DNA from: Promethearchaeota archaeon
GTDB lineage: Archaea; Asgardarchaeota; Lokiarchaeia; Sigyniarchaeales; SOKP01
Assembly (NCBI GenBank): GCA_029838195.1
Contig: JALGVJ010000007.1
Location: 1-64,000 of the forward strand
Direction of reading: 5' to 3'
DNA: 64,000 bases
Of this stretch, positions 42,240 through 46,292 are shown piece after piece (positions within the stretch are counted from its first letter, which is position 1; each line of letters opens with the position of its first letter). Both the position numbers and the translations under genes were made by a program. The notes beneath the pieces are model-generated. The model searched no databases. It was not told the DNA's origin and was given only the letters and a program-made list of their open reading frames with translations.

Positions 42240-43424
42240 TCATGGATTTTCTTCTTTTAATTTTTCTTCAATCCGCCTTTTCTCTTGTTCCAGTATTTTC
42301 CTTTCCTTATCTTGGAGTTCTTTTTTTTTTAATTCCAACTCTACTTGAGCAAGCATTCTTTCTTTCTCAAGCAATTCTTCTTTATGTCTTAATGCTTTTT
42401 CTTTCTCGTTTAATTCTTTTTCCTCTAATGCTTTTTCCCTTGCTTTGAGTTCAATTTTTTTCTTTTTTAATTCAAGTTCTTTTTTTTTCAATTCTAATTC
42501 TTTTTCTCTTATTTCTTGTTCTCGTCGACTTAATTCTTCAGAATCTAACTCAAGAACTTGATTTTCTTTAATCTCACTTTCTTTTTTATCAGGGCTGACG
42601 ATATCTTTTTTAGCCGCTACTGTATCTTCAGATTTTATTAGAGGTTCTTTGGTTCCTTCCTCTACTTTAATAATTTTTTCCTCTTCATCCTTTTCTTTAA
42701 TAGCGTGAGGGACTTCCTCTTTCCTTCCTACTTTTTCTTCGATTAATTGCTCTTTTTTTGTTTTAGGTTCTTCTTCTAAAATTTTATCAATTTTTTCCAC
42801 GGATACAATTGATTTTAGAATATTATCAATTTTTTCTTTTAAGGCTTCGTTATCGGGATTTTTTTTAAGAAAATTTGTCAATATTTTGGTAATGAGCGAC
42901 GGCGATTTATTTCCTATGATTTTTAATAATTGGATTGTCTTATTAACTACAAAATCTTTTTCATCATTCAATTTCTCAACTATATTCATTAAAAGCTTTT
43001 CATCTTCGATTCTAGTATTTCCACCTTCAATAAAAATTAATAGTTGTAGTAAAGCTTCTCTTACATTGGGATCTTCGGAATTCAATAATTCTTCTGCATA
43101 AGGAAAAAATAAATTTGCCTCATTCTCACACATGGATTTCAATAATAATAAAAAGGAATACCGTAGGAGTGAATCTTTTTTCGATAAGTGATTCAATAAA
43201 TATGGAATGTCTATGATTAAATGTTCTATGAGAAATCGTAAGACCGTCCGTCCTGCGAATTCCTTTAATATGGTTTCAATAACATTTTCCATGCGTTCAA
43301 TATAATCCTCTTCAGTAGCCTGATTGAGATACGCTCCTATTTCTTTTACAGCATCATCGATTCTTCCTTCCTTTACAATTTCTTGAATATTTTTCATTTC
43401 TTTTGCATCTTTATTACTGATCAT
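42240..43424 (-). CDS. HEAT/ARM-repeat protein with a long C-terminal coiled coil
   Basis: LLNSEDPNVREA and KLNDEKDFVV repeats; E/K-rich heptads. Confidence 0.8.
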   Translation of the reverse strand: MISNKDAKEMKNIQEIVKEGRIDDAVKEIGAYLNQATEEDYIERMENVIETILKEFAGRTVLRFLIEHLIIDIPYLLNHLSKKDSLLRYSFLLLLKSMCENEANLFFPYAEELLNSEDPNVREALLQLLIFIEGGNTRIEDEKLLMNIVEKLNDEKDFVVNKTIQLLKIIGNKSPSLITKILTNFLKKNPDNEALKEKIDNILKSIVSVEKIDKILEEEPKTKKEQLIEEKVGRKEEVPHAIKEKDEEEKIIKVEEGTKEPLIKSEDTVAAKKDIVSPDKKESEIKENQVLELDSEELSRREQEIREKELELKKKELELKKKKIELKAREKALEEKELNEKEKALRHKEELLEKERMLAQVELELKKKELQDKERKILEQEKRRIEEKLKEENP

Positions 43425-43461: not shown

Positions 43462-44485
43462 TTATTTTTTTTCCACTAAATAATCTTCTAAATTTACAAC
43501 ATAATAATCTTGGTAAATTCTGTTCACAAAATCAAATATTGTACGTAAATCTCTAAATTTAATGGGTACCCTCCTTTTATTATTATCATAACTAGGAGAT
43601 GTGGGTATGATATTTAATTTTATCTGTAAATTATTATTTTGATCATGAATTAAATTAATCTCTTCACAAATAAAAGATAATTTCTCGATATCATTCGCAA
43701 ACTCTCCCAAAAAATACTGATCATATTTCGAATTTTCTTCAAACAAACCATTATTCGACACCTTTACTAATATCTCACGAGGTATTTTCGTAATTAATTC
43801 CACGCGCTCATCAGGAATTAATCGTAATAAAACATCGGGATAATGAACAGAACAATAAAAATATATAAGCCCATGAAGTAATTCTAAGGAATAGATGACT
43901 TCTCGATTGGCATTGCATAATGCATAATTTTTATTCAAGAATAAAACATGAATACGATCTTCAAAAAAGAAAATTAAATAATTTTTTTCTTCTGTTAGGT
44001 AGTATTTAAAATTCTCTTTCTCAACATGAATTCTATGGTCAAATATTTCAAAAGCATAGTCCCATTGTTTAAAAGCAATAAATTTATTTAATTTTCTATA
44101 ATCTCCGTGAAAGAATACGTCAAAAAAATCAACTATGTATAAATACGTGTCATGAGGGAAATATATAACGGTTTTACCTCTAAATTGCCTTTCAATAATG
44201 CCCTTCTGGATCTTATAACAAAATTTTGGGATATCCTCTATTTTTAAACCACTCTTGATGCGCAAATTGAGTAAAAAGCGTCTTGTACAAGAGGGTGTAA
44301 GAGTGCAAGCAATTTTAGACATGGAGTTAATAATCACATGAAGCATGTGCCATTCTATCTATTTGGCACTCTTCGAAACACAACTTGTCAATTCGCTTTA
44401 TCAATAATTCCAACAGCTCAGAATTATACTTCTCATTATAAGAAGTTTCTAAAAAATTTAACAAGTGGTTTGGTTCCAGCGGCAT
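43462..44485 (-). CDS. Cys-motif hypothetical protein interrupted by a 40/52-nt structured insertion (ORFs 44327-44485 and 43462-44346)
   Basis: MPLEPNH...CFEECQIDR joins IACTLTPSCTRR in frame if 44314-44353 is removed; TATA about 28 bp upstream of 44485. Confidence 0.65.
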
Positions 44486-44810: not shown

Positions 44811-46292
44811 ATGCTGAGACAAGTTCACGTGTTTCATGAAGGGAAGCATCTATTTACCCATAGTCTTGCTTTAGGTTTTGGAAAAGAAGAATTGGATAAA
44901 GTAAAAGAAGTAATTGACGAATATATCTCTTACCCAATTCCAGGGAAAACACATCATCGACCTCTTTCTAACTACCAGATTTTTCACCAAGGAAAAGGAA
45001 ATATATATTTTTTATTTGTTGCGGATTTAATTGACTCTATTAATTACATGGAAAAATTAGTTAATAGAACTTTAGAAAAGTTTTCGGAACTCTTTTCGGA
45101 TCCCTTAGAAATTCAACAACAATTAGAAAAAAGGGAAAAATTTATCGCCTTCCTTAATGATCTACAGAAAGAAATGCATTCTAAAATTGCTATAGCAGGA
45201 CCGATTAAATCCGGCAAAACCACTCTCTATAATCTTCTGAAGAGTGGAGAAGAAAGAACACTCATGAATTTTGCAAAGATATCTAATTTTGTAATTAGTA
45301 ATTTAACCTTTGATTTTTGGGATTTTCAACTGCAAGATAATTTTTCATTGCTATGGTCAAAATTTTTAAGCGGCTCAGACCTTATCATTTTATTAATTGA
45401 TGTATCTAATTATAATCTCAAAATTATCAATCATTTTTTGAGTTTTCAAAAAAAAGAAGCTCGATTTTCAAAATTCCTTTTCCTTGCCAACAAGATTGAT
45501 TTAATCAAGAACGTAGAAATCGAATTAGAAAAAATTAAAAAAGATTTAAAAATAAAGGAGTTGATATCCATATCTCTTTCTGAAAACGGCGCAATAAAAA
45601 AAGTCACGACCGCTATCCGAAATACTTTAGGATTAAAAGAAGTGCTTCCGGAGAATTTCGAAACTCTCATGAAAGAAGCTGAGCAATTAGAAAAGGAGCA
45701 TAAATTTGTCTCTGCCATAGCTAAATATAAAAATCTCATCCAAATTTGTAATAGAGTACAAGATTTCTCATATATTAATAACTTTAGGCAAAAAGTAGAA
45801 GAATTAACTGAAAAATTACGGCAAACCGTCGAAAAGAAAAAAGAACAAGAAAAAAAAATTAAATTTGAAGTCCCCGAGCAAATACAATTTAAATATAGAG
45901 TTAAAACAAAATCTCTGCCTCAATCTACTCCTAAAGCGGCAACGACGCTTCAAGAAAAAACGCAACAATCCCCACCGCCATCTAAATTTAAATCCAAATT
46001 AAAACCTTCAGATTTCATTATCGATCTCGAGCCTTTAAGAAAAGACGAAATGATTAAAAAGAAGATAATAGAAACTTCTCATAAAAAAATTGTCCCTGTA
46101 AAGCCGGAGGACTTAAAAAGTGAGGAAGATTATCCAAAAGCACTGCAAAGAATGATATCAAATAGAGGCAGTTATTTAAGTTTAAATTTAACTAAACAAT
46201 ATTTAGAGGAAGTTAAAGAAATCCTCGGCAGGCCCCTGACATTTGAGGACTTGCTAAATTTAGCAGATCAATTCGTTCAGAAGGATCAATAA
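44811..46292 (+). CDS. Longin-like domain + small GTPase (Arf/Rab-like) + helical bundle and tail
   Basis: G1 GPIKSGKT, degenerate G3 WDFQLQ, G4 NKID; N-terminal longin pattern. Confidence 0.8.
   Translation: MLRQVHVFHEGKHLFTHSLALGFGKEELDKVKEVIDEYISYPIPGKTHHRPLSNYQIFHQGKGNIYFLFVADLIDSINYMEKLVNRTLEKFSELFSDPLEIQQQLEKREKFIAFLNDLQKEMHSKIAIAGPIKSGKTTLYNLLKSGEERTLMNFAKISNFVISNLTFDFWDFQLQDNFSLLWSKFLSGSDLIILLIDVSNYNLKIINHFLSFQKKEARFSKFLFLANKIDLIKNVEIELEKIKKDLKIKELISISLSENGAIKKVTTAIRNTLGLKEVLPENFETLMKEAEQLEKEHKFVSAIAKYKNLIQICNRVQDFSYINNFRQKVEELTEKLRQTVEKKKEQEKKIKFEVPEQIQFKYRVKTKSLPQSTPKAATTLQEKTQQSPPPSKFKSKLKPSDFIIDLEPLRKDEMIKKKIIETSHKKIVPVKPEDLKSEEDYPKALQRMISNRGSYLSLNLTKQYLEEVKEILGRPLTFEDLLNLADQFVQKDQ

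What the first reader, a model, noticed from the sequence alone, without database searches (positions are those of the whole stretch)
44299..44373. Gene split by a highly structured 40/52-nt insertion: candidate mRNA intron or recoding element
Seen on the minus strand: a 52-aa ORF (ATG 44485, with TATA) stops at 44327, and the 294-aa ORF continues in another frame. Removing 44314-44353 (40 nt) gives CFEECQIDR-IACTLTPSC (327 aa). The RNA can fold: outer stem AAGAGUGC/GCACUCUU (8 bp), inner UAGA-AUGG/CCAU-G-UCUA and hairpin CACAUG/CAUGUG. A relaxed bulge-helix-bulge (CAAA/AUUG helix with one mismatch, UAG and CUU bulges) cut at canonical positions would remove 44308-44359 (52 nt) and give in-frame EECQICTL (323 aa). 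The perfect UAGA/UCUA helix cut canonically removes 38 nt and does not restore the frame. Known: BHB introns in archaeal mRNAs are rare (cbf5 in Crenarchaeota). Inference: intron, ribosomal bypass/frameshift, or a recent inactivating insertion.
Basis: partly seen in the sequence, partly recalled or inferred. Interest (0 to 1): 0.8.

Follow-up and report, generated by a model that had tools for sequence, protein, structure and literature searches.

The report
tRNA-type 40-base intron in Asgard gene
A conserved gene of unknown function in an Asgard (Lokiarchaeota-type) archaeon is interrupted by a 40-base insert with the exact shape that the archaeal tRNA-splicing enzyme cuts. The mRNA very probably has to be spliced before the full protein can be made, which published work confirms for only one archaeal coding gene (cbf5).

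Summary
On the minus strand a 52-aa ORF (44485-44327) and a 294-aa ORF (44346-43462) are two pieces of one gene. More than 200 Promethearchaeota orthologues are single ~317-aa proteins reading CFEECQIDRI-x-CTLTP, so exactly 40 nt must go, not 52 or 38.

Central helix AGAU/GUCU, with 3-nt bulges AGA and AAA and flanking helices of 3 and 4 bp, is a canonical bulge-helix-bulge motif. Cutting after the second bulge residue removes 44354-44315 and gives QIDRIACTLTP, 327 aa.

A same-genus genome carries a 39-nt insert at the same site, in frame but with a TAG. It has the same motif, and all three differing stem pairs are compensatory. Both exons are under purifying selection. Three further database entries are split after the same codon. 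The genome encodes two full-length EndA paralogues and RtcB. Contigs from two other runs bridge the insert unchanged.

No RNA data were available, so splicing is inferred, not shown.

This scan had already reported about 30-nt introns of this class in this genome and in other Asgard genomes. This one is a longer, canonical member. I judge it a new member of a known kind, confidence about 0.8.

The parts
44355..44485 (-). Exon 1 of the coding sequence (ATG 44485-44483; 43 codons plus the first two bases of the Arg codon, ending ...GAU AG)
   Evidence: ORF list. It aligns to residues 1-44 of the intact orthologues. pN 0.171 against pS 0.809 versus the same-genus relative.
44315..44354 (-). 40-nt bulge-helix-bulge intron (AAUGG...GUCUAA). 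It holds the TAA (44329-44327) that ends the exon-1 frame and an AUG (44322-44320) in frame with exon 2.
   Evidence: Script check of motif and spliced product. A 39-nt counterpart lies at the same site in G001. It is single copy in the genome.
43462..44314 (-). Exon 2 of the coding sequence (starts A AUU GCU UGC = (R)IAC..., ends with the stop at 43464-43462)
   Evidence: The spliced CDS is 984 nt, 327 aa.
44357..44360 (-). Central 4-bp helix, 5' strand AGAU (exon 1)
   Evidence: Pairs A-U, G-C, A-U, U.G with 44317-44320.
44354..44356 (-). Bulge 1 (AGA); predicted 5' cut between G44355 and A44354
   Evidence: The cut rule 'between the second and third residues of the bulges' is stated in PMC2738675.
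44350..44353 (-). Helix h', 5' strand AUGG
   Evidence: Pairs with CCAU 44321-44324. In G001 it is AUGU/ACAU, a compensatory change.
44335..44349 (-). Intron hairpin CACAUG-CUU-CAUGUG
   Evidence: In G001 it is AGCAUG-UUU-CAUGCU, with two compensatory pairs.
44325..44334 (-). Unpaired intron linker AUUAUUAACU
   Evidence: It has diverged and is one base shorter in G001, as expected for an unconstrained loop.
44321..44324 (-). Helix h', 3' strand CCAU
44317..44320 (-). Central helix, 3' strand GUCU (intron)
44314..44316 (-). Bulge 2 (AAA); predicted 3' cut between A44315 and A44314
44361..44363 (-). Helix h, 5' strand AAU (exon 1), pairing with AUU 44311-44313 (exon 2)
   Evidence: 3 bp in G000; 2 bp (U-A, G.U) in G001.
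44311..44313 (-). Helix h, 3' strand AUU (exon 2)
44366..44373 (-). Outer exon-exon helix, 5' strand AAGAGUGC (codons of E-E-C)
   Evidence: 8/8 Watson-Crick pairs with 44299-44306 in both intron carriers; 4-7 of 8 pairs in 16 intronless orthologues.
44299..44306 (-). Outer exon-exon helix, 3' strand GCACUCUU (codons of C-T-L)

Best explanation
The gene at 43462-44485 (minus strand) encodes one 327-aa protein of a conserved, Promethearchaeota-wide family of unknown function. Its coding sequence is interrupted by a 40-nt archaeal 'tRNA-type' intron. In the pre-mRNA the exon-intron borders fold into a canonical helix-bulge-helix-bulge-helix motif, with 3-nt bulges AGA and AAA separated by the 4-bp helix AGAU/GUCU. 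This is clamped by a 3-bp helix and a further 8-bp exon-exon helix. The host's splicing endonuclease EndA (two full-length paralogues, consistent with the (alpha-beta)2 type reported for Asgard) is predicted to cut after the second residue of each bulge. RtcB is predicted to join the exons and probably circularise the intron. The joined message reads ...GAU AG|A AUU GCU... = QIDRIACTLTP. Shown here: the motif, its exact register, its conservation with compensatory changes, selection on both exons, and the presence of the enzymes. Inferred: that cutting and ligation take place in the cell.
For: (1) More than 200 orthologues are single ~317-aa proteins reading CFEECQIDRI-x-CTLTP; 22 of 24 family genomes searched have the gene intact, and only G000 and same-genus G001 are split. 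(2) A canonical hBHBh' is present, and cuts after the second bulge residue remove 44354-44315 and give LCFEECQIDRIACTLTPS; the cut rule is stated in PMC2738675. A motif of this strength has a frequency of 4.5e-5 per position and length in this genome. (3) G001 has a 39-nt insert at the same nucleotide with the same bulges and central helix. Its three differing stem pairs are all compensatory (G-C>U-A, C-G>A-U, A-U>G-C), while the unpaired linker has diverged and changed length. Because 40 nt shifts the frame and 39 nt keeps it but carries a TAG, only excision serves both. (4) Exon 1 shows pN 0.171 against pS 0.809 and exon 2 shows 0.228 against 0.691, so both are under purifying selection at saturated synonymous divergence. 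(5) Three more database mini-ORFs end just after QIDR: P0121, on the contig of the 87%-identical P0002, plus P0122 and P0123. The split proteins form one clade (97/92) sister to the intact P0004. (6) EndA paralogues of 202 and 199 aa and RtcB are encoded. (7) Contigs of two other runs bridge the insert with no differences. (8) In the same genome a 30-nt BHB insert splits a DeoC-family aldolase gene, and pyrG lies in two frames.
Against: No RNA evidence was available: no RNA run holds the sequence. The canonical BHB conformer is not the minimum-energy fold in isolation; it lies 2.5 kcal/mol (G000) and 4.4 kcal/mol (G001) above it. An AUG inside the intron is in frame with exon 2 in at least three lineages, so separate translation of a 286-aa product cannot be excluded. 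Covariation rests on only two DNA sequences from one genus. Extra synonymous conservation around the joint is weak (P 0.03-0.07). A genome-wide strict motif plus ORF-fusion scan shows no excess over a mirrored decoy.
Confidence: 0.8

Rival explanations
1. Split gene. The insert is never removed. The cell makes a 52-aa N-terminal peptide and, from the AUG inside the insert, a 286-aa protein (MSKIACTLTP...), which may work separately or assemble.
For: The intronic AUG 44322-44320 is in frame with exon 2 in G000, G001 and P0002, and annotators call the 286-aa ORF. Both pieces are under purifying selection, which this model also predicts.
Against: It does not explain the canonical BHB in the exact restoring register, or the three compensatory pairs set against a diverged loop. 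No Shine-Dalgarno-like element precedes the intronic AUG, whereas the downstream gene has GGGGAG before its ATG. The four invariant cysteines C36, C40, C47 and C53 would be divided between two chains. The AUG is itself made of the conserved h' and central-helix bases, so its conservation needs no coding explanation.
Confidence: 0.1
2. Decaying gene. The insert is an inactivating insertion (a small mobile element with target duplication AAT) and the gene is a pseudogene.
For: A 3-base direct repeat AAU lies at both borders. The insert carries a stop codon.
Against: The insert is shared by species with saturated synonymous divergence, while exon 1 keeps its start codon and frame and shows pN/pS about 0.2. 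It is single copy in the genome. It has no terminal inverted repeats beyond the BHB stems. There are no further lesions in either species.
Confidence: 0.04
3. Translational recoding. Ribosomes frameshift or hop over the insert, as in T4 gene 60 bypassing.
For: There is a stop soon after the break and a stable hairpin in the gap, as in gene 60.
Against: The take-off codon AGA has no matching landing codon; the codon before the resumption point is AAA. The gap is 40 nt in one species and 39 nt, in frame with a TAG, in the other, so no single frameshift fits. The structure that is conserved is the BHB, not a bypass signal.
Confidence: 0.03
4. Assembly or sequencing artefact.
For: The genome is a metagenome-assembled genome with 7.9% estimated contamination.
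Against: Contigs from two other runs of different studies bridge the insert with zero differences, and a third covers its 3' half. Homologous inserts occur in G001 and, by protein evidence, in P0002/P0121.
Confidence: 0.01

Closest known systems
BHB intron of the cbf5 (pseudouridine synthase) pre-mRNA of Crenarchaeota (Watanabe 2002; Yoshinari 2006; Yokobori 2009, PMC2738675)
   Same: A short intron inside a protein-coding sequence, with borders in a bulge-helix-bulge motif and cuts predicted between the second and third bulge residues. The host has a hetero-oligomeric EndA. Distribution among relatives is patchy, implying gain or loss.
   Different: Different phylum (Asgard/Promethearchaeota) and an unrelated gene. 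The motif here is canonical (3-4-3 with both flanking helices), whereas most cbf5 introns are described as unconventional BHB. cbf5 splicing is confirmed by cDNA; this one is not.
[quoted passage not shown]
   Same: Same motif, same predicted enzymes (EndA, RtcB), similar size range, repeated lineage-specific gains. This genome also looks tRNA-intron-rich: ARAGORN finds only 16 tRNA genes, 8 of them with introns, at 96.6% completeness.
   Different: The substrate is an mRNA. The helices h and the 8-bp clamp are built from codons, so structure and coding constrain the same bases.
About 30-nt BHB mini-introns in Asgard protein genes reported earlier by this scan (unpublished AI notes, e.g. e1-5539761 pyrG, e1-5539368 argG, e1-5540010)
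   Same: Same genome and phylum, same predicted mechanism, same type of comparative evidence. I re-found one such case myself (C90 aldolase, 30 nt) and confirmed that pyrG is in two frames.
   Different: This intron is longer (40/39 nt), with a 10-nt unpaired linker beside the hairpin. It interrupts a lineage-specific protein of unknown function rather than a housekeeping enzyme, and it is confined to one genus-level clade.
Unconventional HAC1/XBP1 mRNA splicing in eukaryotes (Ire1 cut, tRNA-ligase/RtcB joining; cited in PMC5829648 refs)
   Same: A non-spliceosomal, protein-catalysed cut at stem-loop signals in a coding mRNA, with ligation by the tRNA ligase. Removal changes the reading frame.
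   Different: The endonuclease and its signal differ (Ire1 twin stem-loops against the EndA BHB). HAC1 splicing is regulated; nothing here shows regulation.

Membership tests
Archaeal EndA-dependent (bulge-helix-bulge) intron | Two 3-nt bulges on opposite strands separated by a 4-bp helix | tested here: met
   AGAU/GUCU (one U.G pair) between bulges AGA and AAA, in both G000 and G001. The definition is given in PMC5829648 and PMC6379350.
Archaeal EndA-dependent (bulge-helix-bulge) intron | Flanking helices h (exon-exon) and h' (intron) that make the motif canonical hBHBh' | tested here: met
   h is 3 bp (2 bp in G001) plus an 8-bp outer helix; h' is 4 bp (5 bp in G001). Caveat: this conformer is 2.5-4.4 kcal/mol above the minimum-energy fold.
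Archaeal EndA-dependent (bulge-helix-bulge) intron | Cuts between the 2nd and 3rd bulge residues give a functional joined product | tested here: met
   The product reads QIDRIACTLTP, identical to the intact orthologue P0004 and matching the invariant D43 and R44. The spliced CDS is 327 aa in both species.
Archaeal EndA-dependent (bulge-helix-bulge) intron | Structure conserved in relatives through compensatory change | tested here: met
   Three of the three stem pairs that differ between G000 and G001 are compensatory, with no disrupted pair. Only two DNA sequences were available.
Archaeal EndA-dependent (bulge-helix-bulge) intron | Host encodes the splicing endonuclease and the RtcB ligase | tested here: met
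   Three PF01974 hits, two of them full-length with the N-terminal domain (202 and 199 aa), and one PF01139 hit.
Archaeal EndA-dependent (bulge-helix-bulge) intron | Spliced RNA and excised (circular) intron observed; cleavage by EndA in vitro | not testable with these tools
   No RNA run holds the sequence.
Programmed ribosomal frameshift | One fixed frame change at a slippery site, conserved among relatives | tested here: not met
   The insert shifts the frame in G000 (40 nt) but not in G001 (39 nt, with an in-frame TAG).
Translational bypass (T4 gene 60 type) | Matched take-off and landing codons flanking the gap | tested here: not met
   The take-off codon is AGA and the codon before the resumption point is AAA; no AGA or AGG lies at the landing site.
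Miniature mobile element insertion | Several copies in the genome, terminal inverted repeats | tested here: not met
   It is single copy by blastn and blastn-short.

The most novel reading that the evidence does not exclude
The intron is not only a passive interruption. Because it carries both a stop for exon 1 and a conserved AUG in frame with exon 2, spliced and unspliced messages would give different products: a 327-aa protein with all four invariant cysteines, or a 286-aa form lacking two of them. EndA/RtcB splicing could then act as a regulated switch in an Asgard archaeon, a prokaryotic counterpart of HAC1/XBP1-type unconventional splicing, within a lineage where tRNA-type splicing of mRNAs is a routine step of gene expression.
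Probability: 0.1. Interest if true: 0.85.

Novelty: new member of a known kind. Interest (0 to 1): 0.62.

Why it matters
In print, tRNA-type (BHB) introns inside archaeal coding sequences are confirmed only for cbf5 of Crenarchaeota. None of the papers I could search reports one in Asgard archaea. The one recent preprint on Asgard introns covers tRNA genes only.

This case is unusually clean. It has a canonical motif, an exact restoring register, compensatory changes, selection on both exons and an intact sister lineage. It therefore makes a good test substrate for asking whether the closest archaeal relatives of eukaryotes splice mRNAs with the tRNA machinery.

There is also a practical consequence. 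Gene callers annotate such genes as truncated: 286 aa plus a stray 52-aa ORF in three public genomes. Asgard proteomes are therefore systematically mis-predicted wherever such introns occur.

Tried and rejected
The DNA behind P0002/P0121, P0122 and P0123 could not be fetched, so covariation rests on two sequences.
- **No RNA holder listed** for the stretch. Only Logan contigs could be laid, and these cannot show splicing.
- **Pattern scan.** An exon/intron pattern scan of genome contigs and metagenome contigs gave 35 and 91 stretches. All were chance matches except the G001 contig.
- **Genome-wide scan.** A scan for strict hBHBh' plus ORF fusion gave 3410 candidates against 3356 for a mirrored decoy geometry. 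Same-strand neighbouring genes swamp the signal, so introns cannot be counted this way. Relaxed scans around pyrG and argG did not give an obvious strict motif either.
- **Shared hairpin signature.** A search for CAUG-NNN-CAUG returned 270 hits, which is noise.
- **Calibrating the cut rule** on this genome's own tRNA introns failed, because ARAGORN's models of these multi-intron genes are unreliable. I used the literature statement instead.
- **Extra synonymous conservation** around the joint is only P 0.03-0.07.
- **Protein function.** There was no Pfam hit. The AlphaFold model was decent (pLDDT 80). Foldseek found nothing with E <= 0.001, and VIA-align gave a best Z of 6.4 on a generic alpha/beta half. 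The ESM Atlas scores were 0.86 or lower.
- **Rfam** gave no hit at the site or in the window.
- **Rejected readings.** These are the 52-nt relaxed BHB (it deletes the invariant D-R-I), the 38-nt register (it breaks the frame), frameshift, bypass, mobile element, pseudogene and artefact. See the rival explanations.

Full report
**What is there.** The window is contig C49 of a 4.5-Mb, 33% G+C metagenome-assembled genome (96.6% complete, 7.9% contamination). Database relatives of its proteins are labelled Promethearchaeota, Lokiarchaeia and other Asgard names. On the minus strand a 52-aa ORF (44485-44327) is followed, in another frame, by a 294-aa ORF (44346-43462).

**One gene, and the insert is 40 nt.**
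- The long ORF has 213 database relatives. Nearly all are 315-320 aa and read ...KRIDKLCFEECQIDRI-x-CTLTP....
- In a 60-sequence alignment C36, C40, D43, R44, C47 and C53 are invariant.
- The window's exon-1 frame ends ...CFEECQIDR and then runs into a stop. The second frame resumes ...IACTLTP.
- Only removal of 40 nt restores the family sequence.

**The correct structure.**
One base over, AGAU (44360-44357) pairs with GUCU (44320-44317).
- This leaves AGA (44356-44354) and AAA (44316-44314) as 3-nt bulges on opposite strands.
- The inner helix h' is AUGG/CCAU. The outer helix h is UAA/AUU-type, 3 bp, followed by the 8-bp helix AAGAGUGC/GCACUCUU.
- This is the canonical hBHBh' motif: two 3-nt bulges separated by a 4-bp helix (PMC5829648, PMC6379350).
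[quoted passage not shown] It removes 44354-44315, exactly 40 nt, and joins GAU AG|A AUU GCU = D-R-I-A. The result is LCFEECQIDRIACTLTPS and a 327-aa product.
- At the nucleotide level the joint equals the uninterrupted sequence of an intronless orthologue (L016).
- A motif of this strength occurs at 4.5e-5 per position and length in this genome. Here it sits in the one register that works.

**Relatives.**
- Among 40 related genomes, 22 of the 24 family members searched have the gene in one frame. Only G000 and the single same-genus genome G001 are split.
- G001 (62% protein identity, conserved downstream neighbour) has an insert at the same nucleotide. It is 39 nt, in frame, with a TAG in its second codon.
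- Bulges, central helix and cut sites are identical. Canonical cuts give LCFEECQVDRIACTLTP.
- The stems differ at three pairs, and all three are compensatory: G-C to U-A in h', and C-G to A-U and A-U to G-C in the hairpin. The unpaired linker has diverged and lost a base.
- A frame-shifting insert in one species and an in-frame, stop-carrying insert in the other share only one remedy, which is excision.
- Synonymous sites between the two species are saturated (pS 0.69-0.81). Even so, exon 1 has pN 0.171 and exon 2 has pN 0.228. Both exons have therefore stayed coding since the species split.
- The 52-aa piece also has database counterparts. P0121 is 98% identical, lies on the contig of the 87%-identical 286-aa P0002, and has the same intron-encoded tail. 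P0122 and P0123 have other tails. All of them break after QIDR.
- In a maximum-likelihood tree the three truncated proteins form one clade (97/92), sister to the intact 326-aa P0004 (100/100). This is consistent with one gain in that clade.

**Machinery and context.**
- The genome encodes two full-length splicing-endonuclease paralogues (202 and 199 aa, each with N-terminal and catalytic domains), a 106-aa fragment, and RtcB. This fits the (alpha-beta)2 EndA with a broad-specificity loop reported for Asgard archaea (PMC5829648).
- ARAGORN finds only 16 tRNA genes, half of them with introns. This matches a recent preprint reporting that most tRNA genes of some Asgard lineages are interrupted (10.64898/2026.10.13.758758). 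That preprint does not treat mRNAs.
- My own scan re-found a second clean case: a 30-nt canonical BHB in a DeoC-family aldolase gene on C90. Its downstream ORF starts at profile position 33 and its upstream ORF ends ...MLAVDHG.
- pyrG lies in two frames on C56.
- Earlier notes of this scan list further mini-introns of about 30 nt in this genome and in at least 11 other Asgard genomes. I treat those as leads. They show that this class has been found before by the scan.

**Not an artefact.** Contigs of two other runs from different studies bridge the insert without a difference, and a third covers its 3' half. The insert is single copy and matches no Rfam family.

**Weak points.**
- No RNA run holds the sequence, so splicing is inferred.
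- The canonical conformer is 2.5 kcal/mol (G000) and 4.4 kcal/mol (G001) above the unconstrained minimum. In that minimum the tandem AGAUAGA lets GUCU slip by one register or pair with the bulge. The enzyme would have to select or induce the BHB.
- The AUG inside the intron is in frame with exon 2 in three lineages, so a separately translated 286-aa protein is not excluded. However, the AUG consists of conserved stem bases and has no Shine-Dalgarno-like element, unlike the next gene.
- The 8-bp exon-exon helix is perfect in both carriers and has only 4-7 of 8 pairs in 16 intronless orthologues. The two carriers are kin, and extra synonymous conservation at the joint is weak (P 0.03-0.07).
- A strict motif plus ORF-fusion scan of the genome shows no excess over a decoy. 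It says nothing either way about how many such introns exist.

**The protein.**
- It has no Pfam family.
- The AlphaFold model of the intact orthologue is confident (pLDDT 80, pTM 0.74). It shows an N-terminal helical part carrying the four cysteines and repeated alpha/beta units.
- Neither Foldseek nor VIA-align gives a specific match. The ESM Atlas gives nothing either.
- The gene lies between a divergently transcribed Arf-family small-GTPase-like gene and a HEAT-repeat gene.

**Verdict.** This is a canonical tRNA-type (BHB) intron in an Asgard mRNA. It is a new member of the kind so far confirmed in print only for crenarchaeal cbf5, and a longer member of the class this scan has already seen in the same genome. 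Confidence that it is spliced by EndA/RtcB is about 0.8. The main rival is a split gene translated as two polypeptides (about 0.1).

Noticed in passing
G000 contig C90, minus strand 22018-21989 (L165:1490-1519): A 30-nt canonical BHB insert (GAU.CAUG.gaa.[10-bp hairpin].CAUG.aau.AUU) splits a DeoC/LacD-family aldolase gene. The upstream ORF ends ...MLAVDHG. The downstream ORF matches PF01791 only from profile position 33. The fold has z -2.65.
   Followed up: partly
G000 contig C56:72204-73077 (L162, L163): The CTP synthase N-terminal domain (PF06418) is found in two pieces, in different open frames (profile positions 1-62 and 71-265). My strict BHB search did not find an obvious canonical motif there.
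   Followed up: partly
whole genome G000: ARAGORN finds only 16 tRNA genes (8 with introns, some implausibly long) in a 96.6%-complete genome, and none in the 64-kb window. This suggests that most tRNA genes are interrupted at non-canonical positions and are missed by standard callers.
   Followed up: no
G000 C1:152149-152757(-), C8:28088-28687(+), C53:22033-22353(-): There are three splicing-endonuclease ORFs: two full-length paralogues (202 and 199 aa) and a 106-aa fragment resembling the C8 protein. The fragment could be a truncated copy or DNA from a second strain (7.9% contamination).
   Followed up: partly
window 43462-44485(-) and orthologues (A2): The interrupted gene belongs to a Promethearchaeota-wide family of ~317-aa proteins with four invariant cysteines (C36, C40, C47, C53), an invariant HGDYRKLNK motif, no Pfam family and no recognisable fold match. 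The intron lies between the second and third cysteine.
   Followed up: partly
window 44811-46292(+) and 42240-43424(-): The neighbours are a 493-aa protein with an Arf-family small-GTPase domain (residues 116-262), divergently transcribed, and a 394-aa HEAT-repeat protein with a long Glu/Lys-rich tail. The HEAT-repeat neighbour is conserved in G001. This may be an Asgard 'eukaryotic signature' gene neighbourhood.
   Followed up: no
window 44354-44360 and 44314-44320 (-): The tandem AGAU-AGA in exon 1 and bulge 1 lets the 3' strand GUCU pair in two registers. The alternative continuous helix UAGAAUGG/CCAU-G-UCUA is the more stable one in G001. Whether this competition has any role, such as slowing splicing, is unknown.
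   Followed up: partly
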